The notes under the pieces: model-generated
Told to the model about the DNA's origin: nothing
What the model saw: the letters and a program-made list of their open reading frames with translations, nothing else
Database searches by the model: none
Part shown: piece by piece, positions 28,794-45,868 of the stretch
Layout: each line of letters opens with the position of its first letter
Numbering within the stretch: the stretch's first letter is position 1
Program-made: the position numbers and the translations under genes
Source of the DNA: Vicinamibacteria bacterium
GTDB taxonomy: Bacteria > Acidobacteriota > Vicinamibacteria > Marinacidobacterales > Marinacidobacteraceae
NCBI GenBank assembly: GCA_965199715.1
Contig: OZ241322.1
Span: 2,080,001 to 2,144,000 of the forward strand
DNA: 64,000 nucleotides
Reading direction: 5' to 3'

Positions 28794-28800
28794 GTTCCCG

Positions 28801-28815
28801 ATAGCAGGAATCTAT
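28801..28815. promoter_or_regulatory. OxyR autoregulatory box
   Basis: Exact ATAG-caggaat-CTAT (ATAG-N7-CTAT) 7 nt upstream of the oxyR ATG, overlapping a TAGATT -10-like hexamer on the - strand. Confidence 0.65.
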
Positions 28816-28865
28816 CGCGCCAGGCCCGCTGCGACACACTCCCGCCCCTCCGAGGAGGTACCCTG

Positions 28866-29955
28866 ATGCACAGGTTGCTCGCTGGAACGCTGTTCGTCGC
28901 AGTGGCGGCGACCACGCCTGCGGAAGCTGCGGAAGCGTCCGGGTATCGGTTCTTTACCGGGTCGCGGGATCCCGGTGTGCCGTTGTCTGGCGACGCCCTG
29001 CGCTGGAGCCCGGGGAAGTGGAGGACGGGAGGGATCTTGGAGTGGGCGATCTCGGGCGGCCCGGTGTGGACCGAGGCATGGGTGGACGACGAGGAGGAGG
29101 CGCATGAGGCGCCGTTCGGGAGCCTCGATGAAGTGGAGTCGTTCGTCCGGACTGCCGTTGCCGACTGGTCGGAGACTCCAACCGCCGACATGCGGATGGA
29201 GGTCTCTGGGATTGCCAGGGAACTCGGGTCGGTCCGGGACGGCTGAATTCGATCCGGGTTCTCGGTGAGAGTGATCCTCATAACGGGTCTTCGCACGGAC
29301 GGCTTTGGGAAAGAAGATCCGGGAACCGTTGGGTCACGGAAGAATGTGAGGTCAATCTTCCGGGCCACGTCCGGCACCCAAACAAGGACGCCCCGATGAG
29401 CGTGCTGTTGCACGAGCTGGGGCGCTGTCTGGGTCTTCAACATGCGGGACTGACGCCCACCTGGAACGCCAGGTTGGCGCTTTGGGGATGGCAGGAGAAA
29501 AGCGCCGTGTTCTCCGGAGATCCCGTGATGTCGTACGGGTGGGGGTATCCGCTGACCTACGACGATCGCATCGGCGCGTCCCTGCTTGGTCCGGCGCCGG
29601 TGTGGGTGCGCACGACCGGGAGCGTCGCCGGCGAAGTGATTCGCGCCGGGGCCCGGCGCGCTTCGTCCATGTCGCCGCGACGCGTGTCTCGGAAGACGGC
29701 CTCGGCGAAACGACGACCGCTCTTGCGAATCGCGAAGGGAAGTTCGAGATCGAGGGACTCGCTCCCGGCGAGTACCTCCTCGGCGTGCAGCCGGCGCTGA
29801 GGCCCGTCGCACATCCTCGGCTGGCCCGACGGGGGATGGCCCTTGATTTCGACGATCAGTTCGTGCTCGCGCAGACGACGGTGGTCGCCGGGAATGCAAC
29901 TTCCGTCGATCCGATTCAGGTCGGCGGCGAGCGCCGGGGCATGACTCCTCGGTGA
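28866..29955 (+). pseudogene. Fragmented secreted matrixin-like metalloprotease with C-terminal carboxypeptidase-regulatory-like domain
   Basis: RBS GAGGAGG and signal peptide. Split over several frames (stop at 29246, shift near 29660). Degenerate zinc motif HELGRCLGLQH, Met-turn PVMSYG, then GKFEIEGLAPGEYLL. Confidence 0.65.
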
Positions 29956-30050
29956 GAGCCCATGCTGCGCATTGTCCAGGACAGCCTGCGCCGAGGGTCT
30001 TTATCGGGGACGTGCTTCCGAACACACCCCGCGGGGATAGGGCTTCCGTT

Positions 30051-30593
30051 TCAACGGAGTCCGAAGAGAGCCAAGTCCGCGAGCGACCGGGCGAGCTCGT
30101 CCAAGGTGCCGATCCGGTCGGCGCCATCGAGCGCGAGTGGCGGCAGGATGCCTTCATGACCATCCTCGCCAAGCCGCAGCGTCCGCTTGCCGGCCTCCCC
30201 CCCGGTCACGCGGGGCATGCGGCCGGGATCGCCGGCGAGGAACACCAGCACCCGCTCCCCGGGTTCGAAACGGGGCGAGTGGGACTGGCTCATGGCGACA
30301 TCGCCCACGACGCCGCCCGGAACCTGGAACTGGACCTCACTCCCGGAGCTGCCGCGGAGCGAGCGCTCCACCCGTAGCGTGACGGTCGTGAGGATCAGGG
30401 TTCGCTCAGCGTTCCAGTGCGGGCGAGCGTCCACGACCTCGCCGGCGACGACGGCCTTCGAGCGTTGGACCAATTCCGCCGCTGAGGGCCATGCGTAGGG
30501 ATTCCGCGGCCCCTGGCGGCCCCGCTGAGCTGGGGCGCCGCTGGCCACGGCGAGCGCCGCCGCGAGAACGATTACGGAGTTCGGGAAACGCAC
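30051..30593 (-). CDS. Secreted hypothetical protein (beta-rich domain resembling the N-terminus of matrixin-type proteins)
   Basis: GTG 30593 with TATATT 7 nt upstream. Signal peptide, ELVQRSKAVVAGEV...VPGGVVGD...PRFEPGERVLVFL. Confidence 0.65.
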   Translation of the reverse strand: MRFPNSVIVLAAALAVASGAPAQRGRQGPRNPYAWPSAAELVQRSKAVVAGEVVDARPHWNAERTLILTTVTLRVERSLRGSSGSEVQFQVPGGVVGDVAMSQSHSPRFEPGERVLVFLAGDPGRMPRVTGGEAGKRTLRLGEDGHEGILPPLALDGADRIGTLDELARSLADLALFGLR

Positions 30594-30641
30594 GGCGACC
30601 AATATAGTCCGGTCCGCATGAGTGCTCGAGAAGGGTGTTCC

Positions 30642-31471
30642 ATGCGCAGACTTCCGGCGGCGCCGTCGACCGCCAGAGCGGCGGCCACCATCCTCGTGCT
30701 CGCGTCGATCGTGGGATGCGAGGACGCCAGCGCTCCCGCGGCCCCCGCGCCGCCTTCCCCTCCATACTCGGTCCGCTTCGCGGATGCGCAAATTCGGGTC
30801 GGCGAGGGCGACACGGTCATGGTCCGGCGCCTGTACGACGTGCGCAGTCTCGCGTCGCCCACGACGCAGCGGCCGACGGCGTCGTCCGATTCGGCCGTCT
30901 CCGAAGAGGACTACACGCTCTCGGGAGATACGGTGACCATCCCATCCGGGAACGGGATACAGGGCGAGGCGAGCGTCTCGCTCGAGGCGTTGCCCGACAC
31001 CTTCGTTACCGAAGGGGAAGAAACCCTGAGCATCTCGCTCACTCTGCGGGAGCCACGGGCGCCTTGCCGTCGCCGCTCGACGTCGTGATCGCCGATGGTC
31101 CGGTTCCGGTGTGCCCGGGAATCCGGCTCGCGGCAACTCCGCTGACGTCGCTCCATGGAGATGAACATGCGAGCACGCAGCTCCCGATCGAGGTGGATGG
31201 CGACGTCGGGGGCGCGCGGCTCGAGCTGCTCGGGAGCTACGAGAACACGCGCCATTCCGGCCCCCTGCCCACCTTGGGCATTCGTTCGTGGCGGGTTCGC
31301 TCCACTCCCGCCGGCGTGGCGCACGAGATGGACATCAACTGGCCCGGAACGGAGGATTTTCTCGACGCGCCGCCATGGCTCGAGCTCCAGCTCTCCGGAG
31401 GGGCGTGCCCCTACGCCTCCGTCATCGCCTGCGACGAGGCGGGCTGCGAGGTGCGTCCCGGCGAGCGTTAG
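30642..31471 (+). pseudogene. Frameshifted lipoprotein with Calx-beta-like domain
   Basis: Lipobox-like IVGC, SVRFADAQIRVGEGD...EDYTL...TVTIPSG...EGEETLSISL. Continues in another frame near 31050 (LDVVIADG...). Confidence 0.5.
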
Positions 31472-31472
31472 G

Positions 31473-32927
31473 TCAGGCGCGGCGCAGCCGGTCCATCGTC
31501 TCGACGAGGACGTCGAGGAACTCGTCGAGGTGCTCGGCGTGGGTGCGGAAGATTCCGAGCGACGGGCGCTGCCAGAACACCCCGTCCAGCACGGTCGCCG
31601 TGATGAACACGCGCCCGTCGTCCTGGATCGCGTCCTGAAGCTCCCGGTTGCGGGCGTTGATCGCCGGCTCGTCGAGACCCGGCGGCTTCCAGCGGAAGCA
31701 GACGGTCTGCAGCTCCGGCTCCGGCCCGACCTCGATCTCGGGGAGTTCCGCAAGCCGGGCGTGGAGGTAGCGGGCCAGCACCCACTTCTCCTCCAGCGCG
31801 GCGGCGAAGGCCCCCGTCCCGTGGAGCGCGAGGGGGAGGAACATCCGCAGCGCCCGGAAGTGGCGGGTCAGCTCGATGGAGCGCTCGGAAGGTGAGGGTA
31901 CCGGTTGCTCCTCGTCCACGAGATACGGCGCGCGGAATCGGAAGGTGTCCAGATGGCGCGCGTCGCGCAGCACGACTGCCCCGCTGCCGTAGGGCAGGAA
32001 CAGCGTCTTGTGGGGATCGAGCACGACCGAGTCGGAGTCCTCGATTCCCTCGAACAGGTCGCGGCGCGCCGGGACCAGCAGGTAGAACCCGCCGTAGGCC
32101 GCGTCCACGTGGTGCCACAGCCCGGCGGAGCGGGCGATCTCGCCCACCTCGCGAATCGGATCCACGACCCCGGTGTTCGTCGTTCCGCCGGTGGTGACGA
32201 CGAGCCACGGCCGCAGCCCGGCCCGCTGGTCGTCGCGGATCAGGCCGGCGAGCGACTCGGGGACCATCCGGTGGCGCTCGTCGGCGGCGACGATCCGGCA
32301 CTGCGCCTCGCCGGCGCCGGCCAGATGCACCGCCTTTCGCACCGAGTAGTGCTCCTCGTTCGACACATAGACGACAGCGTTCTCGAAGTCGCGGCCCTTC
32401 AGCCCCTTGGCTTCCCGCGCCGCGATGATCGCGGTCAGCCCGGCGACGCTCCCGCCGGACGTGAGCGTGCCGCCCGAGGTCTTCGGATACCCGACCAGCT
32501 CGGCGATCCATTCCACCATCCGGTTCTCGAGGAGCGCCGCTCCCGAGCTCGCGGGAAAGTAGCCGGCGAAGGCGTTCCCGATCGCGGCCAGCCAGTCGCC
32601 CAGCGCCGACGTGAACACGCCGCCGCCGGGAACCCAGCCGAAGTCCCGGGGCGAGGCGGGATTGAGGCCCTGTTCCTCGATCTCTCGCCGGACCAGGTCC
32701 AGCACCTCGCCGATGCTGCGGCCCTCCTCCCCGATCTCCAGTGTCGCGATCTCCGACGCGCCGGACGGGTTCCGCCACCCCGGCCCGGTCTCGAGCGCCT
32801 CGAGGAACCGTTCCGTGTGCGCGCGCGTGGCGTCCTGCAGCGTCTCGCGTTCGGCGGCGTCCGGTTCCAGCCGCTCGCCCCGCCGGCGCAGCCGCTCGGC
32901 CCTTCGTCTCAGTTCCTTCGCGTCCAC
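31473..32927 (-). CDS. Group II PLP-dependent (aromatic) amino-acid decarboxylase
   Basis: GTLTSGGSVA, HYSVRKA, TGGTTNTGVVD, WHHVDAAYGG, SDSVVLDPHKTLFLPYG (PLP lysine). Confidence 0.92.
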   Translation of the reverse strand: MDAKELRRRAERLRRRGERLEPDAAERETLQDATRAHTERFLEALETGPGWRNPSGASEIATLEIGEEGRSIGEVLDLVRREIEEQGLNPASPRDFGWVPGGGVFTSALGDWLAAIGNAFAGYFPASSGAALLENRMVEWIAELVGYPKTSGGTLTSGGSVAGLTAIIAAREAKGLKGRDFENAVVYVSNEEHYSVRKAVHLAGAGEAQCRIVAADERHRMVPESLAGLIRDDQRAGLRPWLVVTTGGTTNTGVVDPIREVGEIARSAGLWHHVDAAYGGFYLLVPARRDLFEGIEDSDSVVLDPHKTLFLPYGSGAVVLRDARHLDTFRFRAPYLVDEEQPVPSPSERSIELTRHFRALRMFLPLALHGTGAFAAALEEKWVLARYLHARLAELPEIEVGPEPELQTVCFRWKPPGLDEPAINARNRELQDAIQDDGRVFITATVLDGVFWQRPSLGIFRTHAEHLDEFLDVLVETMDRLRRA

Positions 32928-34291
32928 GACGGAATCCTACGCATTCCGAGCCCGTAGCCGAGCGCGCTCAGGGCGGTCAGCCCGAACGCCGTCGGCAGCG
33001 GCGTCTGGAGGAATCCGTCCCAGCCGAGCGCGACGTGGAGCAGCCACCCGCCGGTTCCGAACGCCATCGAAGCGAGCGCCGCGGTCTCGCCCCCGCGCTG
33101 CCCGAAGAGCCCGAGCGTGAGCGGCACGAAGAGCCCGACGAGGGTCAGCTCGTAGGCGTCCGCCAGCAGCGACCGCGCGCTCGCCCCGGAAAGGCCCTGG
33201 GCGAGGCTCGCGCCGCCGACGACGAGCACCGCGACCCGGGTGAGCCGGAGCGCGCCGGTCTTCGGGAAAACGTGCCGCATCAGGTTCCAGCCGAGCACCG
33301 AGGCCGCCGACATGAGCGCGCTGTCCACCGTCGAGAGCAGCGCCGAGACGACGAGCACCGTGACGACGAGCGTCGCGAGCGGGCTGAGGATCACGTCCAG
33401 CAGCGCCGCGCCTTCGGGGAGCGTCCGCGCGGCGATGAGGCCGGACAGCGCCGGCAGCGCTCCCAGCAGGCAGTAGAGGATCCCGGCGAGCACGCACGAC
33501 CGCCGCGCCTGGGCTCCGGTCCGGCAGGACAGCACCCGCTGCATCACGTCCTGCCCGGGAACGTTCCCGAGCGCGCCGGCGGCGAGAAGCCCGGCCCACA
33601 TGAGCAGCGGCTCGCCTCCGGCGGGGAAGGGGCGCAGCATCTGCGGCGGGGTCTCCGCGCCGAGGCGCGCGAGCCCGGCGAGGACCGAGCCGTCCCCGAA
33701 GCCGGCCAGCGCCGTGACCGCGACCGCGCCGAGTCCGATCGCCACGAGCGCCATCTGGCCGGCGTCGGTGAGCGTGACCGACCACATGCCGCCCGCCATG
33801 GTGCAGCCCACGGCGAGCGCGGTCACCACGAGCAGCGAGCCAAGTTCCGGCGTTCCGAGCGCGTCCGCGACGAGCGAGCCGAGGACGGTGAGCTGGGCGG
33901 CGATCCACCCGAGGAAACTCGCGACCATGACGACCGCGGCGAGGACTTCGGCGCGGCGCCCGAAGCGCTCCGCGAAGAAGTCGCCGAGCGTCAGGAGACC
34001 GGCGCGGCGGAGCGGGACCGCGTAGAACAGGCCCACGAGCACGAGGCAGATTCCCGGGCCGATGGGCTCGAGCGCGGCGGCCTCGATCCCGCGACGGCGC
34101 ACTTCCTCCGCCGAGGTCAGCAGCGTTCCGGCCCCGAACCAGGTCGCGAGCAGGCCGAGCGTGGCGAGCGGGGTTCCGAGCCGCCGCCCGGCCACGGTGA
34201 AGTCGGCGAAGGAGCCGACCCGCCGCCACGCCAGCGCCGCGACCGCGATCAGCCCGGCGGCGTAGAGGCCGAGCGCGACCGCCGCGATCAG
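32909..34291 (-). CDS. Sodium:solute symporter (SSS, choline/proline-transporter-like; start uncertain)
   Basis: DFTVAGRRLG, LLATWFGAG, MAGGMWSVTLTDAGQ, GQDVMQR, SALLSTVDSAL. Probable CTG start overlapping the upstream stop. Confidence 0.85.
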   Translation of the reverse strand: MIAAVALGLYAAGLIAVAALAWRRVGSFADFTVAGRRLGTPLATLGLLATWFGAGTLLTSAEEVRRRGIEAAALEPIGPGICLVLVGLFYAVPLRRAGLLTLGDFFAERFGRRAEVLAAVVMVASFLGWIAAQLTVLGSLVADALGTPELGSLLVVTALAVGCTMAGGMWSVTLTDAGQMALVAIGLGAVAVTALAGFGDGSVLAGLARLGAETPPQMLRPFPAGGEPLLMWAGLLAAGALGNVPGQDVMQRVLSCRTGAQARRSCVLAGILYCLLGALPALSGLIAARTLPEGAALLDVILSPLATLVVTVLVVSALLSTVDSALMSAASVLGWNLMRHVFPKTGALRLTRVAVLVVGGASLAQGLSGASARSLLADAYELTLVGLFVPLTLGLFGQRGGETAALASMAFGTGGWLLHVALGWDGFLQTPLPTAFGLTALSALGYGLGMRRIPSWTRRN

Positions 34292-34476
34292 GGCTTTTTC
34301 CGCAGGAGAAGCGCGAGTTGGACCAGCGGCGCGCCGAGCAGCAGCGCCGCCATCAACCAGCCGAACGTCGCGACTCCGAGGAACGCGCCGCCGCCCCAGA
34401 TCGGCAGGAACGCGACGACCGAGAAGCCGACGAGGCCCAGCAGCATGGCGCGGTCCCGCGCCGCCATCGGGAACAT
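34288..34476 (-). CDS. Small 2-TM protein associated with SSS transporters (62 aa)
   Basis: MFPMAARDRAMLLGLVGFSVVAFLPIWGGGAFLGVATFGWLMAALLLGAPLVQLALLLRKKP. Coupled to both SSS genes. Confidence 0.7.
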   Translation of the reverse strand: MFPMAARDRAMLLGLVGFSVVAFLPIWGGGAFLGVATFGWLMAALLLGAPLVQLALLLRKKP

Positions 34477-35891
34477 CAGGCGTGCAGCCTCGCCACCGCG
34501 TCGAGGCGGTCCGGCGGATCGCTCCGGCCGAGCCGGGCCCCGAGGATCATCGCGAGGAGGCTGAGCGGGAGCGCGACCACGATGGGCGGGAGCGCGGTTC
34601 CCGCGAAGAGCGCCGCCGCGTAGGCGACGACGCCGACGACGAGCGCCGCGACGCCTCCCGCGAGGTTGGCCCGCTTCCACCACAACCCGAGGACCACCGG
34701 GACGAAGAGCCCGGCGGACAGCAGGCCGACGCCGGCGGTGTAGAACTGGGAGAGCACCTCCGGCGGCGACCACGCCCAGTAGAGCGCCGCCGCCCCCACC
34801 ATCCAAGTGGCGCCCATCCGCGCTGCGTTCTGGACGAGCTGCGACCGACCCCGCAGCCATCCGCCGAGAAGGTCGTGGGCGATCGCCGAGCTCACCGCGA
34901 GCAGGAAGGCGTCGGTCGTGGACATGACCGCGGCCAGCACCCCCGCCGCCGCGAGGCCCCGGAACAGCGGCGGGAAGTGCCCGCCGATCACCTGGAGGAA
35001 CACTTGATCGGGATCCGTCAGGCCCGGGTACAGGAGGACGCCGACCGGGGCGATCACGAGCACCGCGAGGAAGATCATGAAGCTGTAGCCGACCATGGCG
35101 AGGTTCAGCGAGAGCCGCGCGCTTTCGGGGTTCTTCGCGGTCGCGACGCGCATCACGATGTGCGGGATCACCGGGATCGCGGTGGCCCAGATCACGAAGA
35201 AGCCGAGATGGCCGAGACCGCTTTCGGGCAGCGCGCCGAACTCGGGCAGGGCGCGGGTCGCACCATCGACGAGCGCGAGCGGCGATCCGTGGGCCCAGAC
35301 CAGCGCCACGGCGGCCCCGACCATCACGAGGAACATGACCGCCCCTTGGATGAGGTCGGTCTGCGTGACCGCGACCATGCCGCCGAAGGAGACGTAGAGC
35401 ACGAACACCACGGTGGCGACGGCGATGGCGGTGTCGTACGGCACGCCGAGGAACACTTCGGCGGTGATCCCGGCCGCCTTCATCTGGGCGACCATGTACA
35501 CGGTCAGCGCGACCACGATCACGACCGGGACGAGCGTCCGCACGACCGGATGCGGGAACCGGAAGGCCATGAAGTCGGTGATCGTGAACTTCCCGAACCG
35601 CCGCAGCGGCCCCGCGACCAGCACCGTGGCCAGCGGGAACCCCACGACCGCGCCGGTGAATAGCGCGAGCGTCGCCGGGATCCCGCCCTCGTAGGCGAGC
35701 CCGAGCACGCCCACGAGCGAGCCGCCGCTCGCGATCGCGGCCATGATCGCGAAGGCGTTGGTCCACGTGCCGATCCGCCGCCCGGCCACCCAGTACTCGG
35801 ACTCCGAGCCGAGCACCCGGCGGGTCGCGAGCGCCCCGACCCCGAGGCAGACGCCGAGGTAGCCGAGAACCAGCCAGTGCTCGAGCGTCAC
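34476..35891 (-). CDS. Sodium:solute symporter (SSS)
   Basis: EYWVAGRRIG, FTITDFMAFRF, YVSFGGMVAVTQTD, PHIVMR, AAVMSTTD. GTGA overlap with the halogenase stop. Confidence 0.9.
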   Translation of the reverse strand: MTLEHWLVLGYLGVCLGVGALATRRVLGSESEYWVAGRRIGTWTNAFAIMAAIASGGSLVGVLGLAYEGGIPATLALFTGAVVGFPLATVLVAGPLRRFGKFTITDFMAFRFPHPVVRTLVPVVIVVALTVYMVAQMKAAGITAEVFLGVPYDTAIAVATVVFVLYVSFGGMVAVTQTDLIQGAVMFLVMVGAAVALVWAHGSPLALVDGATRALPEFGALPESGLGHLGFFVIWATAIPVIPHIVMRVATAKNPESARLSLNLAMVGYSFMIFLAVLVIAPVGVLLYPGLTDPDQVFLQVIGGHFPPLFRGLAAAGVLAAVMSTTDAFLLAVSSAIAHDLLGGWLRGRSQLVQNAARMGATWMVGAAALYWAWSPPEVLSQFYTAGVGLLSAGLFVPVVLGLWWKRANLAGGVAALVVGVVAYAAALFAGTALPPIVVALPLSLLAMILGARLGRSDPPDRLDAVARLHA

Positions 35892-37120
35892 GCGGTCGCC
35901 GGCGCCCCGTAGGGTAGGTCGGGCGGCGTGCGGGCGAACTCGGCGAGGGCGCGCTGGAGCGCGGTGAAGTCGCGGGTCAGGTTCCCGATCAGGCAGTCGG
36001 TGAGGTCGCTCCGCAGATCCGGATGCGCCTCCAGCAGGTCGGCGAACCGGAACCCCTCGTCGTAGAACGCGTACACCAGCTTGCGCATCGCCTCGAGGCT
36101 CGCCGTCAGCTCGCGCCCGTACTCCGCGAACCGCTCGGCTCCGAAGTCCCCGTCGCGGATGGCCGAAACCGCCGCGTCCGCCGCCATCTCGCCGCTGCGC
36201 AGCGCGAGGAAGACCCCCGACGAGAAGACCGGGTCGAGGAAGGCGAAGGCGTCGCCGGCGAGGAGGAGACCCTCGGTCGCGCAATGCCGGGAGCGGTAGG
36301 AGTAGTCCCCGGTGACGCGCACCGGGCCGACCCGGGTGGCCGGGCGAAGGCGCTCCCGGATCCACGGGTTGGACTCGGTCTCGCGCGCGAACGCGCGCTC
36401 GGGGTCGCGGCCCTCCCGGTAGAGCCATGAGGCCTCCGCCGTGGCCCCGACGCTCGTGAGCCCGCCGGGCAGGGGGATGTGCCAGATCCAGCCCTTCTCC
36501 GGGAGCATGGCGACGGTGGTTGCCCCGGCGTCGAAGGCCCGCGCCTTGAGGCCCCGGCGGAAGTAGGACCACAGCGAGACCTTCTTCAGCTTTGGGTCCA
36601 CCACCCGCCAGCCGAACGCGCGGGCGGCGAGCGCGTCGCGCCCCGTGCAGTCGATCGTCACCGGCGCCCTGAACACGGATCCGCCGGCGGCCTGGACTCC
36701 CTCGACTCGCCGTTCGTCGCCGAGAAGGTCCCGCGCCTGCGTGTCCTCGAAGACGGTCGCGCCCGACTTCCGGGCGTGGTCCAGCAGGATGCGGTCGAAG
36801 TCGGCGCGCGGCACCTGCCACGTCCGGGCGGCCTCGTGGTCGAGGCACTCGAAGAAATAGAACGGCCGCGACATCCGCCCCGAGGCCGAGGCGAACTGGA
36901 CGCTGTACTTGTTCACGAACCCCGCGTCCCGCACCGCGTCGGCCGCGCCGATCCGCTGGAGCGGGAAGAAGCACCACGGAAGGAGCGACTCGCCGACCTT
37001 GTAACGCGGGAAGCGGCGCTTCTCCAGCACCGCCGTCCGCATCCCCGCCTGCGCGAGGACGGACGCCGCCGTAGCCCCCGCCGGGCCGCCGCCGATGACG
37101 ACCGCGTCCCAGTCAGACAT
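35888..37120 (-). CDS. Flavin-dependent halogenase-like FAD protein
   Basis: GGGPAG, FPRYKVGESL, GFVNK (candidate catalytic Lys), GWIWHIP (WxWxIP), GDAFAFLDPVFSSG. Confidence 0.8.
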   Translation of the reverse strand: MSDWDAVVIGGGPAGATAASVLAQAGMRTAVLEKRRFPRYKVGESLLPWCFFPLQRIGAADAVRDAGFVNKYSVQFASASGRMSRPFYFFECLDHEAARTWQVPRADFDRILLDHARKSGATVFEDTQARDLLGDERRVEGVQAAGGSVFRAPVTIDCTGRDALAARAFGWRVVDPKLKKVSLWSYFRRGLKARAFDAGATTVAMLPEKGWIWHIPLPGGLTSVGATAEASWLYREGRDPERAFARETESNPWIRERLRPATRVGPVRVTGDYSYRSRHCATEGLLLAGDAFAFLDPVFSSGVFLALRSGEMAADAAVSAIRDGDFGAERFAEYGRELTASLEAMRKLVYAFYDEGFRFADLLEAHPDLRSDLTDCLIGNLTRDFTALQRALAEFARTPPDLPYGAPATA

Positions 37121-38450
37121 AGGCGATCTCGCGGTGCTCCGGCAGGAAGAACATCGGCAGCACCCGGTCCACCCGCAGGATCCCGCGATCGCTCAGCACC
37201 GGCCCCGAATCGTTGATCTCCAGGTAGCCGGCGCCCTCCAGCAGCTTCAGTTGCTCGCCGAAGCGCTCCAGCACGTCGGTCCCGAAGTCGTCGAGGAATC
37301 GCCGGCGGGAGACCCGGCCCAGCTTCATCTGCAGGACGAACTGGCGGACGAGGCGCTCCTCGTCGGAGATGGGGAGCGCCCGCAGCGCTGGGAGCTCGCC
37401 CCGGCGCACCCGCTCCACGTAGGGGCCGATGGACGTCTCGTTCTGGTAGTGGCAGCCCGAGGCGTGGCCGAACGACGAGACCCCGATCGCCAGCATGTCG
37501 GCGCCTCGCCACAGCGCGTCCCGGTACACGAAGCCGCCCCGACCCGGATCGCGCACCGCCGTGTAGGCGCTCGACCGGGAGTAGCCGGCGGCCTCCAGCG
37601 CCGCGAACGCCTCGGCGGTCCAGCGCCGCTTCGTCTCCCAGTCGGGCAGCTCGAGCGTCTCCTCGCCGTCCTCGCGGATCCGCCGGGCGATGGTGGTGTT
37701 CCGGGGCACTTCCATCTGGTAGATCGTGACCGCGTCGGGGGCGAGCCGGATGGTTTCGCGAACCGCTTCCGTCCAGCGGGCGTCGTCGTCGCCGAGCATC
37801 CCCGCGATCAGGTCGATGTTGATCTGCGGAAAGCCGACCTCGCGCGCCCGGTCGAAGGCGTTCTCGATCTCCGCCGACCGGTGCGCGCGGTTGTTCGCCT
37901 CGAGGACGCCGTCGTGGAAGTGCTCCACGCCGAGGCTCAGCCGGGTGACGCCGAGCTCCCGGATGCGATCGAGCTTCCCCGGCGTGAGCGTGCCCGGCTC
38001 GCACTCGAAGGCGAACTCCTCTAGCTGCGAGAGATCCAGCGCCGCGTCGAGGCCCTCCATCAGGCCGTCTAGCTGCGCGACCGAGAGATACGACGGGGTG
38101 CCGCCGCCGAAGTAGAGGAACTGCAGCGGGCGCCGTCCGAAGGGCGCGCGCCCGAGCCGCCGCGCCTCGGCGACCACCGCGTCGAGGTACTCCCGCACGG
38201 CCGAAGCGTTCTTGTCGGTATAGACGCGGAAGTAGCAGAAATGGCAGCGCTTGCGGCAGAAGGGGATGTGGACGTAGGCGCCGAACGGGACCCCGGCGCG
38301 GCCGGGCCGGGCGATCCGGTCGAGCAGCGCCGGCACGTGGTCCGGCGACCAGAGCGAGAACGGCGGGTAGTTCGCGACGAAGTAGTTCCCGAGGCTCCCC
38401 TCGTCGTCGTCGGAGAGCAACGTCTCGGCGATTCTCTGGACCTCGGGCAC
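37113..38450 (-). CDS. HemN-like radical SAM enzyme (not canonical HemN)
   Basis: YVHIPFCRKRCHFCYF (CxxxCxxC), YFGGGTPS, RLSLGV, NIDLIAG. N-terminus GNYFVANYPPF replaces the HemN PRYTSYPT. Confidence 0.88.
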   Translation of the reverse strand: MPEVQRIAETLLSDDDEGSLGNYFVANYPPFSLWSPDHVPALLDRIARPGRAGVPFGAYVHIPFCRKRCHFCYFRVYTDKNASAVREYLDAVVAEARRLGRAPFGRRPLQFLYFGGGTPSYLSVAQLDGLMEGLDAALDLSQLEEFAFECEPGTLTPGKLDRIRELGVTRLSLGVEHFHDGVLEANNRAHRSAEIENAFDRAREVGFPQINIDLIAGMLGDDDARWTEAVRETIRLAPDAVTIYQMEVPRNTTIARRIREDGEETLELPDWETKRRWTAEAFAALEAAGYSRSSAYTAVRDPGRGGFVYRDALWRGADMLAIGVSSFGHASGCHYQNETSIGPYVERVRRGELPALRALPISDEERLVRQFVLQMKLGRVSRRRFLDDFGTDVLERFGEQLKLLEGAGYLEINDSGPVLSDRGILRVDRVLPMFFLPEHREIAYV

Positions 38451-38482
38451 GGCGGCCCAAGTCTAGGCGTAGCATCCCCCGC

Positions 38483-39274
38483 GTGCGCATCATCACGTGG
38501 AACCTGAACTCGATCCGCACCCGCCGCGCCCGGCTGCTGCGCCTGCTGCGGCGGCACCGGCCGGACTTCCTCTGCTTGCAGGAGCTGCGCGCCGAGCCGG
38601 AGGCGTTCCCGTGGATGGAGGTCCGGGCCGCCGGATACGCCGGCGCGGTCGAGTCGCAGGCGGCCCGCAACGGCGTCGCGGTGCTGTCCCGGGCGCCGGT
38701 CGAGACGCGGTCGCGCCGCCTCGCCGTCGGGGGTCGCGCCGAATCGCGTTTTCTCGACGTGGCGCAGGGTCCGCTGCGGGTGATGTCGGCGTACGTGCCG
38801 AACGGCAAGGCGGTAGCGCACGACGACTGGGGGTACAAGCTCGAGTGGCTCGGCGCGCTCCGGAATCATCTCGACGCGACCGCCCGGACCGACGAGCCGC
38901 TCGCGCTGTGCGGCGACTTCAACGTGGCGCCCGCCGACCGGGACGCCGCGGTCGCCAACCCGAACGGGGTCCTCTGCCACCCCTCGGGACGCGAGGCGCT
39001 CGCCGGCGTGGCCGAGTGGGGGCTCCAGGACGCCTACCGGCTCCGCCACCGGGAGGGCGAGGAGCCGGAGAAGGGGATCTACACGTGGTGGGACTACACC
39101 CGGCTCTCCTTCGCCCGGAACGTGGGAGCGCGCATCGACCACATCTACGTCACCGCGCCGCTCGCCGCCCGCCTCGTGGACGTCCGAGTGGACCGGGACG
39201 AGCGCCGCCAGCGCAAGGGCGAGGACATCCCCTCCGACCACGCTCCCGTGATCGCGGATTTCCGGGACGCGTGA
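38483..39274 (+). CDS. xth: Exodeoxyribonuclease III
   Basis: ITWNLNSIR, LCLQE, YVPNG, GDFNVAP, YTWWDY, RIDHI, SDHAPV. Confidence 0.95.
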   Translation: MRIITWNLNSIRTRRARLLRLLRRHRPDFLCLQELRAEPEAFPWMEVRAAGYAGAVESQAARNGVAVLSRAPVETRSRRLAVGGRAESRFLDVAQGPLRVMSAYVPNGKAVAHDDWGYKLEWLGALRNHLDATARTDEPLALCGDFNVAPADRDAAVANPNGVLCHPSGREALAGVAEWGLQDAYRLRHREGEEPEKGIYTWWDYTRLSFARNVGARIDHIYVTAPLAARLVDVRVDRDERRQRKGEDIPSDHAPVIADFRDA

Positions 39275-39362
39275 GGCTGCGTCGCTTCGAATCACCGACG
39301 TGCCGGATCCCGCGCCGTCCCGAGGCCGCTCGGCCCGCGCCGGAGGGAGCGGAATGGCTCCC

Positions 39363-39457
39363 AGCCTTGCACATGAGCCGCTGGGCCGATTTTGTTGAAG
39401 GTAGCCTTGCATGAATCGCGCTCCATCGCGTCCAACGCAAGGAACCTTGCATATGAG
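39363..39457 (+). repeat. Three CCTTGCA-(n)-ATGA motifs at 40-bp period, operator-like
   Basis: CCTTGCA at 39365, 39405 and 39445. The third copy is part of the palindrome GCAAGG-aa-CCTTGC. Confidence 0.5.
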
Positions 39458-39650
39458 GGACCGATCCGCTGGTCGGCTGCGCGCCGGACGCCACGTGCGT
39501 CAGCCGACTGGCCACAGAGCCTTCCTGCCCGAGCCGCTTCCGCCCGACCCGCCCGTCCGGATCGAGGGGGAGCTGCTGGACCCGCTCTCCCAAGCTGACC
39601 TGGCGCTGGGGCGCCTCGACGGCTCCGTGAGCACGTTGCCCAACCGCGCC
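39453..39650 (+). pseudogene. Remnant of a Fic/DOC family gene (N-terminal domain only)
   Basis: AGRHVRQPTGHRAFLPEPLPPDPP...LSQADLALGRLDG...LPN. Homology stops there and no Fic HPFxDGNGR motif follows. Confidence 0.75.
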
Positions 39651-40043
39651 AAGCGGCGGCGATCTCCGCCACGGACATGGAGCCGCTCGTCGAGCAGGGC
39701 CGGGAGCGGCTGGACGCGGTGATCCACCGATGGCGCGCCGCCGGGGTCTCCGACGAGGCCATCGGGGAGTGGCGCGAGCGGGCGGAGGCTCTTTTTCGCC
39801 GAGGCGATCGCTCAAGGTTGTTCGCCGGACCCGAACACGGCGGAGGAGCGCTTCGAGGTCTCCGCCGGGCGACCCGAAGGGCCGTCGAGCCGGGCCGCAC
39901 CACCGAGGAGCGGGCGGCCTCGCTGATCGCGCAGTACGAGGAGCACGCGCCGATAGCGAACGCCCGGCCAGCCGTTGCGGGGCCCCCCGCGCTCCCCTAA
40001 AATGAGCGGTGCGGCTTTGCCCGGTTCTCGGCTGCCGCCCCCC

Positions 40044-42503
40044 ATGCTGACGCGCTCATTCCGAGTCCTGCCGGTCGCGCTCGCGGCGCTCGCCCTTGCC
40101 GGGATCGCGTCCGCCGAGGAGCCCTCGATTCGGGCGGCGCGGGAGTGGTCGCCGAACGAGGCGACCGCCGCCGAGCACAACCAGGTGCTCCGCCGCTACT
40201 GCATGACCTGTCACAACGACCGGATGCAGACGGGCAACCTCTCGCTGACCGGGTTCGACGCCGGCGCCGCCGAGAGCCATCCCGACGTGGCCGAGAAGGT
40301 GATCCGCAAGCTGCGGCTCGGGATGATGCCGCCGCCGGGGGCCCGCCGCCCCGAAGAAACCGTTCTCGCCGACATCGCCCTCAGCCTCGAGGCGCGGATG
40401 GACCAGGCCGCCGCCGACCAGCCGAACCCGGGCCGCCGTTCCTTCCAGCGCCTGAACCGGGCCGAGTACAGCGCCGCCGTGCGCGATCTCCTCGCGCTCC
40501 CGGTGGACGGCGCCGACTACCTGCCGCAGGACACGATCAGCGCCAACTTCGACAACATCGCCGACGTCCAGCTCCTGTCGGCGACGCTCATGGACTCGTA
40601 CCTGCGGGCCGCGAGCGACATCAGCCGGCTGGCCGTCGGCGACCCCCGGGCCAGCGCCGCCGAGACCGGCTACCACGTGTCCCGCTGGTCCTCTCAGCTC
40701 GAGCGGGTCGAGGGCGCGCCCCACGGCACCCGCGGCGGGATCTCGGTGGAGCACATCTTCCCGGCGGACGGCGAGTACCGGTTCCGGATCGCCTTCCACC
40801 ACGAGACCACCGGCGCCATCGTGGGTTCGGGATCCAGCTCGATCCACACCTACGGCGAACCGGAGCAGGTCGAGATCTCCATCGACGGCGAGCGCGTCGC
40901 GCTCCTCGACGTGGGCCGCTGGATGCATGTCTCCGACCCGGACGGCGTGAACCTGCGCACCGAGCCGGTCTTCGTCCGCGCCGGCGCCCGCCGCCTCGCC
41001 GCTGCCTTCCTGCGCCGGTTCGAGGGGCCGGTGCTGGACCTGATCTCGCCGCACAAGTGGTCGCTCGCGAGCACCGCGACCTCGCGCACCTACGGCATCC
41101 ACGGGATGCCCCACCTGCGCGACCTCTTCGTCACCGGCCCCTTCGACGCGACCGGCGTGGCCGAAACGCGCAGCCGGGCGCGCGTCTTCAGTTGCCGCCC
41201 GCTCGCGCCCGAGGAGGCGCGTCCCTGCGCCGAGTCGATCATCGACCGCCTCGGGCGCCTCGCCTACCGCCGCTCGCTCGACGCCGCGGATCGCTCCCGC
41301 CTGCTGGAACTCTATGAACGGGGCGCCGCGGAGTCCGGGTTCGAGGAAGGCGTCCGGATGGCCGTCGAGGGGATGCTCGCGAGCCCCAACTTCGTCTTCC
41401 GCCTCGAGGAGCCGCTCGATCCGAGGGAAGCGGAGTTCGGCTACCGCATCACCGAGACCGATCTGGCATCCCGGCTGTCCTTCTTCCTGTGGGGGACGAT
41501 CCCCGACGAGCAGCTTCTGGACGCCGCCGAATCCGGCGAGCTGGCCGAACCCGAGGTCTTCGACGCGCAGGTGCTGCGGATGCTCCGCGACCCGCGCTCC
41601 GATGCGCTCGCGCGGCGGTTCGCGGCGCAGTGGTTCCGGCTCCAGGACCTCAAGAAGATCAACCCGAACGTCCGCCTCTACCCCGACTTCCACCAGCAGC
41701 TCAAGGCCGCGATGGCGAAGGAGACCGAGCTCTTCTTCCACCACCTCGTCGCCGAGGATCTCAGCCTGCTCGACCTGTTCACCGCCGACTACACGTTCGT
41801 GAACGAGCGCCTCGCCGACCACTACGGCTTCTCGGGCGTGGTCGGCCCCGAGCACCGGATGGTGCGGTACCCGGACGACACGCGCCGCGGGGTCTTCGGG
41901 CACGGCAGCATGCTGACCCTGACCTCGCACCCGTACCGCACCTCGGCGGTGCTGCGGGGCAAGTGGATCATGGAGGTGCTGCTCGGCAGCCCGCCGCCGC
42001 CCCCGCCGCCCGACGTGCCCGACCTCGACGCGGTCGCCTCGGACGTGCCCGGACGCGAGTTGACGGCCCGGGAGCAGCTCGAGATCCACCGGGACAACCC
42101 GGCCTGCCGGTCGTGCCACCGGATGATGGACCCGATCGGCCTCGCGCTCGAGCACTTCGACGTGACCGGTCGGGCGCGGGTCAAGGACCAGGGCCAGCCG
42201 ATCGACGCTTCGGGCGAGTTCTACGACGGCACCCCGATCCGCGACGCGGCGGACCTGCGGGAAGCCCTGCTGAAGCGCCCGGAGCCGCTGCTTCGGACCT
42301 TCACCGAGAACCTGATGGCCTACGCCCTGGGCCGCCGGGTGGAGCACTTCGACCAGCCGCATGTCCGCGCCATCGTGCGCGCCGCGGCGGAATCCGACTA
42401 CCGGATGTCGGCCTTCGTGCTTGGAGTCACGAGGAGCGCGGCGTTCCAGATGAAGGGCAGCGCCCCGCCGGTCGCGACGGACGACGTCGCCGGCGAGCAC
42501 TGA
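40044..42503 (+). CDS. Secreted di-heme cytochrome c domain protein of the DUF1587/1592/1588/1585 family (copy 1)
   Basis: Signal peptide, CMTCH, GMMPPPG, QRLNRAEY, LASRLSFFLW, ADYTFVNERLA, RTSAVLRGKW, CRSCH, DPIGLALEHFD. Confidence 0.9.
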   Translation: MLTRSFRVLPVALAALALAGIASAEEPSIRAAREWSPNEATAAEHNQVLRRYCMTCHNDRMQTGNLSLTGFDAGAAESHPDVAEKVIRKLRLGMMPPPGARRPEETVLADIALSLEARMDQAAADQPNPGRRSFQRLNRAEYSAAVRDLLALPVDGADYLPQDTISANFDNIADVQLLSATLMDSYLRAASDISRLAVGDPRASAAETGYHVSRWSSQLERVEGAPHGTRGGISVEHIFPADGEYRFRIAFHHETTGAIVGSGSSSIHTYGEPEQVEISIDGERVALLDVGRWMHVSDPDGVNLRTEPVFVRAGARRLAAAFLRRFEGPVLDLISPHKWSLASTATSRTYGIHGMPHLRDLFVTGPFDATGVAETRSRARVFSCRPLAPEEARPCAESIIDRLGRLAYRRSLDAADRSRLLELYERGAAESGFEEGVRMAVEGMLASPNFVFRLEEPLDPREAEFGYRITETDLASRLSFFLWGTIPDEQLLDAAESGELAEPEVFDAQVLRMLRDPRSDALARRFAAQWFRLQDLKKINPNVRLYPDFHQQLKAAMAKETELFFHHLVAEDLSLLDLFTADYTFVNERLADHYGFSGVVGPEHRMVRYPDDTRRGVFGHGSMLTLTSHPYRTSAVLRGKWIMEVLLGSPPPPPPPDVPDLDAVASDVPGRELTAREQLEIHRDNPACRSCHRMMDPIGLALEHFDVTGRARVKDQGQPIDASGEFYDGTPIRDAADLREALLKRPEPLLRTFTENLMAYALGRRVEHFDQPHVRAIVRAAAESDYRMSAFVLGVTRSAAFQMKGSAPPVATDDVAGEH

Positions 42504-45861: not shown

Positions 45862-45868
45862 CACGACC

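What the first reader, a model, noticed from the sequence alone, without database searches (positions are those of the whole stretch)
31473..38450. Orphan cluster: HemN-like radical SAM + halogenase + two symporters + aromatic decarboxylase
Seen: six overlapping, co-oriented genes. The FAD protein has the halogenase fingerprints (GxGxxG, candidate Lys, WxWxIP, FxDPxFSxG). The radical SAM lacks the canonical HemN N-terminal motif. No ACP, PKS, NRPS or precursor peptide was found in the window. Established: HemN-like class C enzymes can methylate or cyclopropanate, short FDHs often act on phenols or carrier-bound substrates, and group II decarboxylases make tyramine or tryptamine. Inference: an undescribed pathway that imports an amino acid or amine and makes a halogenated, possibly methylated biogenic amine (e.g. 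halotyramine-like). Caveat: the decarboxylase has its own -10-like box (TAGGAT, 32939-32934) and may be independent.
Basis: partly seen in the sequence, partly recalled or inferred. Interest (0 to 1): 0.7.

Follow-up and report, generated by a model that had tools for sequence, protein, structure and literature searches.

The report
Halogenase cassette inserted into importer-decarboxylase operon
A travelling pair of genes for a halogen-adding enzyme and a radical enzyme has been slotted in front of an older nutrient-import and decarboxylation operon in one group of sponge-associated bacteria, so the six genes are read together but may not form a single pathway.

Summary
The six tightly overlapping, co-oriented genes are real. 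They are a HemN-like radical SAM enzyme, a flavin-dependent halogenase (FDH) with all signature motifs, an SSF symporter, a 62-aa membrane protein, a second choline-transporter-like SSF symporter, and a group II PLP decarboxylase.

The block has two ancestries.

- **Radical SAM + FDH pair.** It is a co-inherited cassette, adjacent in 69 of 80 loci from Acidobacteriota, Verrucomicrobiota and Planctomycetota. There its neighbours are aryl-acid-type genes, never these transporters or this decarboxylase.
- **Symporter/decarboxylase operon.** Decarboxylase orthologues are in 18 of 18 genomes of the window's family. In 5 of 5 loci from sister genera the operon sits beside the same xth gene without the cassette.

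The cassette was therefore inserted at the head of an autonomous operon in three genera (7 genomes).

RNA-library contigs bridge three of the junctions inside the operon, but DNA carry-over is not excluded.

A single pathway to a halogenated, methylated amine remains possible (about one in three) but is not shown. The decarboxylase's aromatic specificity is also unproven.

This scan has already met the same uncharacterised radical SAM + FDH pair on four other genomes. A 2026 preprint lists an A/FDH/rSAM/P450 core in sponge Acidobacteriota.

The parts
37113..38450 (-). HemN-like radical SAM enzyme (445 aa), first gene of the inserted cassette
   Evidence: Pfam Radical_SAM 87.5 bits plus HemN_C 28.6 bits. 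CRKRCHFCYF and GGGTPS motifs are present. It scores below every NCBIfam cut-off: HemW 177.1/205.4, HemN 170.9/324.95, ChuW/HutW 165.9/400. PDB matches: HemN 1olt 2e-34, NocN 3.5e-27. It is 48-58% identical to 36 homologues from other phyla.
35888..37120 (-). Flavin-dependent halogenase, variant-B type (410 aa), second gene of the cassette
   Evidence: Motifs GGGPAG, K71, GWIWHIP and FLDPVFSSG are present and invariant in 26 of 26 homologues. Pfam Trp_halogenase scores 96.5 bits. PDB matches at 4e-52 to 1e-37: ChlB4, 8zop halogenase, PltA, 3e1t halogenase, 5buk, CmlS and the 5bva halogenase. K71 aligns to a lysine in the four printed alignments.
34476..35891 (-). SSF2, sodium:solute symporter (471 aa), GTG start overlapping the FDH stop (GTGA)
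   Evidence: Pfam SSF 158.3 bits. Nearest NCBIfam models are VC_2705 family 153.6, PanF 142.2 and PutP 126.6, all below cut-off. Junction read.
34288..34476 (-). 62-aa membrane ORF with no known family, conserved beside the symporters
   Evidence: Translation. Homologues of 69-91 aa occur in relatives, upstream of SSF2 in genera g3, g4, g2 and g6. No Pfam or NCBIfam family matched.
32909..34291 (-). SSF1, divergent sodium:solute symporter (460 aa), probable CTG start
   Evidence: Pfam SSF 63.4 bits. Best solved relatives are high-affinity choline transporters (9rws 3.5e-32; CHT1 1e-20). Start codon examined.
31473..32927 (-). Group II PLP-dependent decarboxylase (484 aa), substrate unassigned
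   Evidence: Pfam Pyridoxal_deC 193.2 bits. The DPHK lysine motif is in the sequence. PDB and NCBIfam give no clear specificity. Orthologues of 63-80% identity are in 18 of 18 genomes of the family.
38483..39274 (+). xth (exodeoxyribonuclease III), a divergent neighbour that marks the insertion site; not part of the system
   Evidence: TIGR00633 198.4 bits, above its cut-off of 99.05. It lies directly next to (small)-SSF2-SSF1-decarboxylase in 5 of 5 sister-genus loci, and next to the radical SAM gene in the window and in G003, G005, G006 and G011.

Best explanation
**Two modules of different ancestry in one packed unit.**

Module B is the small membrane protein, the two Na+/solute symporters and the group II PLP decarboxylase. 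It is the ancestral operon of this bacterial family. It works without the halogenase. It most likely takes up an amino acid or amine and decarboxylates it to an amine.

Module A is the HemN-like radical SAM enzyme plus the variant-B flavin-dependent halogenase. It is a two-gene cassette inherited as a unit across several phyla. In the ancestor of three genera it was inserted between xth (and the promoter region) and the first gene of module B.

**Inferred chemistry of module A.**
- The halogenase uses FADH2, O2 and halide to make hypohalous acid. Lys71 holds this and delivers it to an electron-rich phenol- or pyrrole-type ring.
- The radical SAM enzyme performs a radical step on the same scaffold, most plausibly C-methylation or alkylation as in class C methyltransferases.

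**What is shown and what is inferred.**
- Shown: gene identities, motifs, the overlaps, the two ancestries and the insertion site.
- Inferred: the chemistry, the substrate and the halide.

I read the two modules as autonomous and co-expressed. It is possible, but not required, that the cassette uses module B's substrate or product.
For: **The pair is a co-inherited unit.**
- The radical SAM gene lies upstream on the same strand in 69 of 80 FDH loci from genome contigs. Of the other 11, three have under 300 nt of upstream sequence and one (L047) has only a fragment on the opposite strand.
- It is also adjacent in 10 of 10 relatives.
- In the FDH and radical SAM trees the 7 window-type rows form one clade (SH-aLRT 100). 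In the radical SAM tree that clade lies unresolved beside the clade of 10 Bryobacterales rows. In the FDH tree it is sister to one of those rows, within the same 17-row group (SH-aLRT 89-94).

**The pair's partners differ elsewhere.**
- In Verrucomicrobiota, Planctomycetota and some Acidobacteriota: a 190-aa ORF, GT4, 4HBT thioesterase, PaaK-like ligase, ABC/FtsX and PQQ propellers.
- In sister genera: P450 plus AMP-ligase.
- In Bryobacterales: DUF885 and an FAA-hydrolase-family gene.
- A decarboxylase match was found in 0 of 80 loci, and an SSF match in 1 of 80 (weak, 26%, 5 kb away).

**Module B is autonomous.**
- Decarboxylase orthologues are in 18 of 18 genomes of the family.
- The layout xth <> (small)-SSF2-SSF1-decarboxylase, without the cassette, is in 5 of 5 loci fetched from genera g2, g5 and g6.
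- G014 (94% complete) keeps module B but has no FDH match at E <= 1e-40.

**Distribution is accessory.** The FDH family is in 68 of 301 genomes of the phylum sample at E <= 1e-80.

**Transcription.** RNA-library contigs identical or nearly identical to the window bridge rSAM/FDH (36242-38086), FDH/SSF2 (35387-35943) and SSF2/small/SSF1 (34072-34984).

**Halogenase identity:**
Against: - The cassette is translationally coupled to module B: GTGA in the window, and 4-nt overlaps FDH/small/SSF2 in G005.
- The block has stayed intact in 7 of 7 genomes of three genera at 56-85% amino-acid identity, even though the small ORF changed place and xth was not found beside the cluster in G001 and G002.
- These genera had no match to the P450/ligase-linked pair of their sister genera: one FDH match each at E <= 1e-40.

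All three points fit recruitment into one pathway as well.

No activity, substrate or product was measured. The radical SAM enzyme's reaction is unknown. The RNA contigs cover the flanks and an ORF-free stretch at similar depth, so DNA carry-over is not excluded.
Confidence: 0.5

Rival explanations
1. **One integrated pathway.** An amino acid is imported by the symporters and decarboxylated. The ring of the amino acid or its amine is then halogenated by the FDH and C-methylated by the radical SAM enzyme. The product would be a halotyramine- or halotryptamine-like compound.
For: - All five junctions overlap.
- The block is conserved in 7 of 7 genomes of three genera despite internal rearrangement.
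- RNA-library contigs bridge three junctions.
- The decarboxylase's best solved relatives are a gut-bacterial PLP decarboxylase (4obu) and a DOPA decarboxylase (1e-58). Its nearest Atlas clusters are auto-named aromatic-L-amino-acid decarboxylase (a lead only).
- No match to the P450/ligase-linked pair was found in these genera.
- The DNA is held by runs labelled sponge metagenome. A 2025 review states that the biosynthetic origins of sponge bromotyrosine and bromopyrrole alkaloids are unknown (PMC12426817, passages).
Against: - Module B exists without the cassette in 5 of 5 sister-genus loci, and in a genome with no FDH match.
- The cassette is never next to SSF or decarboxylase genes elsewhere: 0 of 80 loci had a decarboxylase match, 1 of 80 a weak SSF match.
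- Decarboxylase homologues elsewhere are never next to SSF, rSAM or FDH: 0 of 29 and 0 of 80.
- Decarboxylase specificity is unresolved.
- The solved variant-B FDHs closest to this one act, as I recall, mostly on carrier-bound substrates. There is no carrier protein in the window.
Confidence: 0.32
2. **Not a halogenation system.** The FDH-like flavoprotein is a monooxygenase-type or maturase-type enzyme. With the HemN-like protein it would modify a common cellular molecule such as a quinone, a tetrapyrrole or a protein-bound cofactor.
For: - Both proteins are unusually conserved (48-59% identity across phyla).
- The family is very large: 7788 of 8000 scored candidates at E <= 0.001.
- The second-best NCBIfam model is the monooxygenase QhpG (137.6 bits, below its cut-off of 240). 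LodB/GoxB maturases also score.
- As I recall, HemN-family members often bind tetrapyrroles.
Against: - K71, WxWxIP and FxDPxxSSG are invariant in 26 of 26 homologues. The lysine aligns with a lysine in the four printed alignments to solved halogenases.
- Solved halogenases score far better than any other flavoprotein.
- Distribution is patchy: 68 of 301 genomes in the phylum sample, and G014 had no match. That does not fit a housekeeping role.
Confidence: 0.1

Closest known systems
Variant-B flavin-dependent halogenases with solved structures (ChlB4 7fco, halogenase 8zop, PltA 5dbj, halogenase 3e1t, 5buk, CmlS 3i3l, 5bva)
   Same: Same motifs and conserved lysine. Sequence matches of 4e-52 to 1e-37 cover nearly the whole protein.
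   Different: It scores below the only NCBIfam equivalog model hit (CmlS, 185 against 900). There is no PKS, NRPS or carrier-protein context. It is always paired with a HemN-like radical SAM enzyme. Substrate and halide are unknown.
HemN / HemW / class C radical SAM methyltransferases (NocN, ChuW/HutW)
   Same: Radical_SAM plus HemN_C architecture, with CxxxCxxC and GGGTP motifs. It aligns to HemN over residues 27-430 and to NocN over 58-258.
   Different: It scores below the curated cut-offs of HemN, HemW, HemZ and ChuW/HutW. The cluster motif ends in YF (CRKRCHFCYF) rather than with the fourth cysteine that I recall for true HemN. It has its own conserved N-terminal motif, with core residues invariant across the 37-sequence alignment. 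The reaction is unknown.
'Halo_AMP' connected component A of sponge-associated Acidobacteriota (bioRxiv 10.64898/2026.08.03.742642; passages read)
   Same: The preprint reports a conserved core of A-domain ligase, FDH, rSAM and P450, with the FDH likened to Bmp2 and the rSAM unlike any characterised one. I found the same gene content (P450-rSAM-FDH-AMP-ligase) in sister genera of the window's family (L100; ligase also in L101).
   Different: The window's cluster has no AMP-binding gene and no P450, so the preprint's detection rule would miss it. The window's pair belongs to a different clade. No sequences from the preprint could be compared because supplements are closed. No function is shown in the preprint either.
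Conserved multi-gene operon of Planctomycetota, Verrucomicrobiota and Acidobacteriota noted earlier by this scan, with the BaaA/BaaB proposal for 3,5-dibromo-p-anisic acid (bioRxiv 10.1101/723874; passages read)
   Same: It has the same rSAM-FDH core. The genome also holds scattered look-alikes of other operon parts: ALDH-ABC-FtsX, Fe-ADH plus PQQ propellers, and GT4 plus a weak AMP-binding gene.
   Different: At this locus the 190-aa ORF, thioesterase, PaaK-like ligase and the rest are missing, and tblastn found none of those three in the genome. BaaA/BaaB was never genetically tested, by the authors' own words.
Amino-acid decarboxylase plus transporter modules (for example tyrosine decarboxylase with its antiporter; recalled, no call)
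   Same: A group II PLP decarboxylase overlaps a transporter gene and is conserved as a unit in a whole family.
   Different: The transporters are two SSF symporters plus a small subunit-like protein, not an APC antiporter. SSF1 resembles choline transporters. The substrate is unknown.

Membership tests
Flavin-dependent halogenase (variant B, phenol/pyrrole type) | GxGxxG FAD fingerprint, WxWxIP and FxxPxxSxG motifs | tested here: met
   GGGPAG, GWIWHIP and FLDPVFSSG are present. They are invariant in 26 of 26 homologues and present in the 7 window-type rows.
Flavin-dependent halogenase (variant B, phenol/pyrrole type) | Conserved lysine that carries the halogenating species | tested here: met
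   K71 is invariant. It aligns with a lysine in the four printed alignments: ChlB4, the 8zop halogenase, PltA and the 3e1t halogenase. That this lysine is the catalytic one is recalled.
Flavin-dependent halogenase (variant B, phenol/pyrrole type) | Curated model score | tested here: inconclusive
   Pfam Trp_halogenase scores 96.5 bits against a cut-off of 21, but over only part of the profile. The NCBIfam CmlS equivalog scores 185 against a cut-off of 900, which is not met.
Flavin-dependent halogenase (variant B, phenol/pyrrole type) | Halide-, O2- and FADH2-dependent halogenation | not testable with these tools
   This needs an enzyme assay.
HemN (oxygen-independent coproporphyrinogen III oxidase) | TIGR00538 equivalog cut-off | tested here: not met
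   170.9 bits against 324.95.
HemW heme chaperone | TIGR00539 equivalog cut-off | tested here: not met
   177.1 bits against 205.4. A second HemN-like gene (28% identical) lies elsewhere in the genome.
Class C radical SAM methyltransferases | HemN-like architecture: radical SAM core with CxxxCxxC, GGGTP and a HemN_C domain | tested here: met
   It matches the solved methyltransferase NocN at 3.5e-27 over residues 58-258.
Class C radical SAM methyltransferases | Methyl or methylene transfer using two SAM molecules | not testable with these tools
   No sequence feature that I could test separates methyltransferases from other HemN-like enzymes. The ChuW/HutW model is not met (165.9 against 400).
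Group II PLP-dependent decarboxylase | Pyridoxal_deC domain above cut-off, with a PLP-binding lysine | tested here: met
   193.2 bits against 27. DPHK is in the sequence.
Aromatic L-amino-acid decarboxylase | Specificity for Tyr, Trp or DOPA | tested here: inconclusive
   The best PDB hits are 4obu and a DOPA decarboxylase at 1e-58, but diaminobutyrate and desferrioxamine decarboxylases reach 1e-50. The best NCBIfam model is diaminobutyrate decarboxylase, at 184.5 against 900. Atlas names are automatic.
Sodium:solute symporter family | Pfam SSF above cut-off | tested here: met
   SSF2 scores 158.3 and SSF1 63.4, against a cut-off of 22.8.
'Halo_AMP' gene clusters (preprint rule: Trp_halogenase plus AMP-binding) | An AMP-binding gene near the halogenase | tested here: not met
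   None of the genome's 5 AMP-binding matches lies in the window. The feature is met in sister genera (L100, L101).

The most novel reading that the evidence does not exclude
The radical SAM + halogenase pair is a self-contained, laterally moving 'halogenate and alkylate' cassette. In this sponge-associated, Acidobacteriota-like lineage it was plugged into an amino-acid import and decarboxylation operon to make brominated aromatic amines. That would be a bacterial source of bromotyramine- or bromotryptamine-type building blocks of sponge alkaloids, whose genes are still unknown.
Probability: 0.12. Interest if true: 0.8.

Novelty: new variant of a known kind. Interest (0 to 1): 0.45.

Why it matters
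The HemN-like radical SAM + flavin halogenase pair is very widespread. Thousands of homologues span at least three phyla, and it was present in 68 of 301 genomes sampled in this phylum. It is strongly conserved and, in the searches I ran, has no characterised member. Working out its chemistry would annotate a large block of dark matter and probably add a new halogenated scaffold.

This window adds an evolutionary point. The pair moves as a cassette and can be bolted onto an unrelated, older operon. Tight operon packing and conserved synteny within a family are therefore not enough to infer one pathway.

If the two halves do cooperate, the locus would be a candidate bacterial route to halogenated amines in a sponge holobiont. 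That is an open question in marine natural products.

Tried and rejected
- **Complex prediction.** Complex prediction of the radical SAM enzyme with the FDH (alignments A2 and A1) gave no verdict (score 0.00, controls not run). It says nothing either way.
- **Signal scans.** The promoter/terminator scan of 30500-39500 found 0 promoter-like sites and 2 terminator-like sites, against 2.7 expected. Rfam and tRNA scans of the window found nothing.
- **Geranylgeranyl-reductase reading.** Rejected: 3e-17 against 4e-52 for halogenases.
- **Halide (iodide-symporter-like) importer idea for the SSF genes.** Not supported. The only solved relatives at E <= 0.01 are choline and glucose transporters.
- **Small ORF as a known small subunit of VC_2705-type symporters.** No family match.
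- **Import forced by loss of the shikimate pathway.** Rejected, because chorismate synthase is present.
- **Wider search for window-type decarboxylase orthologues.** The best hit in metagenome contigs is 45% identical, and 0 of 80 loci carry SSF, rSAM or FDH. In the phylum sample the best outside the family is 45%, and 0 of 29 loci carry them.
- **Naming the organism.** The listing of cluster members gave no names and kinship is not told for named genomes. The C-terminal half of RpoB is 64% identical to two Acidobacteriota and 54-56% to PVC and Omnitrophota genomes. FDH hits of 57-58% identity in a 'same phylum' family mirror the Bryobacterales loci. The organism is therefore Acidobacteriota-like, not proven.
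- **Literature.** Five searches found no paper that assigns a function to a HemN-like + FDH pair. The terms were:
  - 'HemN-like' / halogenase / Verrucomicrobia
  - 'class C radical SAM' / 'flavin-dependent halogenase' / 'gene cluster'
  - 'coproporphyrinogen III oxidase' / 'tryptophan halogenase' / neighborhood
  - flexirubin / 'radical SAM' / halogenase
  - bromotyrosine / sponge / halogenase / decarboxylase / symbiont

  PMC8269204 holds none of the terms I searched in it. The analogy with flexirubin ring chlorination and methylation stays an untested idea.
- **ORF-free stretch.** tblastx of 28794-31472 gave only low-complexity noise.

Full report
**Anatomy**

The window has about 72% G+C, so raw ORF lists are full of spurious frames. 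Third-position GC and translations give six minus-strand genes:

| Gene | Coordinates | Size |
|---|---|---|
| HemN-like radical SAM enzyme | 37113-38450 | 445 aa |
| Flavin-dependent halogenase (FDH) | 35888-37120 | 410 aa |
| SSF2 symporter | 34476-35891 | 471 aa |
| Small membrane ORF | 34288-34476 | 62 aa |
| SSF1 symporter | 32909-34291 | 460 aa |
| Group II PLP decarboxylase | 31473-32927 | 484 aa |

All five junctions overlap:
- rSAM/FDH: 8 nt
- FDH/SSF2: GTGA
- SSF2/small ORF: TGATG
- small ORF/SSF1: CTGA
- SSF1/decarboxylase: 19 nt

SSF1 has no ATG, GTG or TTG before 34195. Its conserved first helix lies upstream of that point, and G003 has GTG where the window and G002 have CTG. A CTG start or coupled re-initiation is therefore likely.

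It lies 7 nt before the decarboxylase GTG, so it looks like a ribosome-binding site. Upstream, 32 nt away and divergent, is xth.

**Identities**

*FDH.*
- It has GGGPAG, K71, GWIWHIP and FLDPVFSSG. All are invariant in 26 of 26 homologues.
- K71 aligns with a lysine in the four printed alignments to solved halogenases.
- Solved variant-B halogenases match at 4e-52 to 1e-37. A geranylgeranyl reductase matches at only 3e-17.
- No NCBIfam cut-off is reached: CmlS 185 against 900, QhpG 137.6 against 240.

*Radical SAM enzyme.*
- It has Radical_SAM plus HemN_C, and CRKRCHFCYF and GGGTPS.
- It aligns to HemN over residues 27-430 and to the methyltransferase NocN over 58-258.
- It falls below the cut-offs of HemW, HemN, HemZ and ChuW/HutW.

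*Symporters.*
- Both pass Pfam SSF.
- SSF1's best solved relatives are choline transporters.
- SSF2 is nearest to VC_2705-type, PanF and PutP models, below their cut-offs.

*Decarboxylase.*
- It passes Pyridoxal_deC.
- Its specificity is open. 4obu and a DOPA decarboxylase score 1e-58. Diaminobutyrate and desferrioxamine decarboxylases score 1e-50.

*Carrier proteins and ligases.* The genome has two PP-binding domains and five AMP-binding domains. None is in the window.

**The radical SAM + FDH pair is a widespread cassette**

- The FDH family is huge: 7788 of 8000 scored candidates at E <= 0.001, with the best 120 mostly at 54-69% identity.
- I kept the best 80 loci of 558 confirmed in genome contigs. 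They come mainly from Bryobacterales and other Acidobacteriota, Verrucomicrobiota and Planctomycetota.
- In 69 of those 80 the radical SAM gene lies upstream on the same strand. Three of the other 11 have almost no upstream sequence.
- None of the 80 has a decarboxylase match. One has a weak SSF match 5 kb away.
- Clustering of neighbouring ORFs and Pfam show a larger conserved operon in many of these loci:

| Neighbour | Loci (of 80) |
|---|---|
| PaaK-like ligase | 45 |
| 190-aa ORF between the two genes | 44 |
| 4HBT thioesterase | 43 |
| GT4 | 37 |
| PQQ-type propeller | 31 |
| ABC ATPase | 28 |
| Fe-ADH | 18 |
| FtsX permease | 15 |
| Aldehyde dehydrogenase | 14 |

- This is the operon that four earlier notes of this scan described on other genomes.
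- In the phylum sample the FDH family is patchy: 68 of 301 genomes at E <= 1e-80.

**Relatives of the window**

- Of 31 genomes of the order, 24 have an FDH match.
- The three same-genus genomes (83-86% identity) and three genomes of two other genera (64-67%) carry the same block: rSAM, FDH, SSF2, small ORF, SSF1, decarboxylase. That is 6 of 6.
- In genera g3 and g4 the small ORF lies between the FDH and SSF2. In G005 it has 4-nt overlaps on both sides.
- Other genera of the family and order have a more distant pair (41-53% identity). There P450 lies upstream in G004, and an AMP-ligase downstream in G004 and G007.
- That gene content matches the A, FDH, rSAM, P450 core that a 2026 preprint reports from sponge-associated Acidobacteriota, without a function (bioRxiv 10.64898/2026.08.03.742642; passages read).
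- In trees of both proteins the 7 window-type rows form one clade (SH-aLRT 100). In the radical SAM tree the clade is unresolved beside the clade of 10 Bryobacterales rows. In the FDH tree it is sister to one of those rows within the same 17-row group (SH-aLRT 89-94). The pair of the sister genera forms a separate clade (100) (quick searches, midpoint root).

The two genes therefore travel together. The window's pair is not the one its sister genera carry.

**The symporter/decarboxylase operon is older and autonomous**

- Decarboxylase orthologues of 63-80% identity are in 18 of 18 genomes of the family.
- I fetched five loci from genera g2, g5 and g6. All five read PSD-domain gene, xth, then divergently (small ORF)-SSF2-SSF1-decarboxylase, with no radical SAM or FDH gene. 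tblastn detected the small ORF in 3 of the 5.
- G014 (94% complete) has this operon but no FDH match at E <= 1e-40.
- Outside the family, decarboxylase homologues reach at most 45-50% identity.
- They have no SSF, rSAM or FDH neighbour in 0 of 29 loci (1.5-kb flanks) and 0 of 80 loci.

The simplest history is one insertion of the cassette between xth and the first gene of the operon, in the ancestor of genera g1, g3 and g4. No match to the P450/ligase-linked pair was found in those genera.

**Expression**

- Nine runs from four studies hold the stretch or part of it. Two of them are RNA libraries from the study that may be the source of the DNA.
- Their contigs, with 0-2 differences from the window, bridge four junctions:
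  - rSAM/FDH (36242-38086)
  - FDH/SSF2 (35387-35943)
  - SSF2/small ORF/SSF1 (34072-34984)
  - the decarboxylase stop into downstream DNA (30611-31814)
- Cover is similar over xth, the flanks and an ORF-free stretch.
- This is therefore consistent with co-transcription, but it does not exclude DNA in the libraries.

**Reading**

The identities, the overlaps, the two ancestries and the insertion site are shown. The chemistry is inferred. The FDH would halogenate an electron-rich ring. The radical SAM enzyme would do a radical alkylation or another radical step on the same scaffold. Module B would import an amino acid and decarboxylate it.

Whether the cassette uses module B's compound is open.
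- For coupling: translational coupling, retention through three genera despite internal rearrangement, and no match to the other pair in these genera.
- Against: both halves work alone elsewhere. The cassette's partners elsewhere point to aryl acids. The decarboxylase's substrate is unknown.

I put autonomy with co-expression at about 0.5, one pathway at about 0.3, and a non-halogenating role at about 0.1.

**Other parts in the genome**

Look-alikes of other operon parts are scattered in the same genome:
- aldehyde dehydrogenase-ABC-FtsX at C1:190-195 kb
- Fe-ADH with PQQ propellers at C1:109-115 kb
- GT4 followed by a weak AMP-binding gene at C1:143-146 kb

tblastn found no homologue of the 190-aa ORF, the thioesterase or the PaaK-like ligase of L004.

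**Limits**

- No enzyme activity is known for any member.
- Supplements of the preprint are closed, so I could not test identity with its clusters.
- The BaaA/BaaB proposal (bioRxiv 10.1101/723874; passages) is untested by its authors and could not be compared by sequence.
- Tallies include genomes flagged unpublished (G027; G054, G079, G182). The synteny and insertion claims do not rest on them.

Noticed in passing
window 28794-31472: About 2.7 kb between the decarboxylase and a LysR gene has no convincing ORF. GC3 stays at or below about 0.85 and the best frame switches every few hundred bases. The two longest ORFs have no Pfam hit. There is no Rfam family and no homologue in relatives or in the genome. 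The stretch is still covered by RNA-library contigs.
   Followed up: partly
window 34289-34291: SSF1 seems to start at CTG, overlapping the small ORF's TGA. G003 has GTG at the same codon, G002 also has CTG and G005 has ATG nearby.
   Followed up: partly
It reads as a Shine-Dalgarno-like AGGA.
   Followed up: yes
window 39975-42503 and 45824-48319: Two paralogous genes (76% identical) encode proteins with DUF1587/1592/1588/1585/1595 domains and a weak cytochrome c domain. A third copy (56%) lies elsewhere in the genome. Both window copies keep their place next to xth in relatives.
   Followed up: no
G000 C1:109-115 kb, 143-146 kb, 190-195 kb (L103, L105, L104): Scattered look-alikes of parts of the large rSAM-FDH operon of other phyla: Fe-ADH with PQQ propellers, GT4 followed by a weak AMP-binding gene, and aldehyde dehydrogenase-ABC-FtsX. 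Whether they work with the cassette is unknown.
   Followed up: partly
L100 7978-13503, L101 7910-12006: Sister genera carry P450-rSAM-FDH-AMP-ligase (P450 checked in L100 only). This matches the gene content of the 'Halo_AMP' component A of a 2026 preprint on sponge Acidobacteriota.
   Followed up: partly
G010, G015, G017 (FDH matches): In three genomes of genus g2 the FDH match holds one in-frame TGA. This could be a broken gene, a sequencing error or recoding. I did not look further.
   Followed up: no
L052, L055, L059, L080: Records labelled Akkermansia muciniphila, Pelagibacteraceae and Chitinophaga pinensis sit inside Verrucomicrobiota clades of the FDH tree. The labels of these bins are probably wrong.
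   Followed up: no
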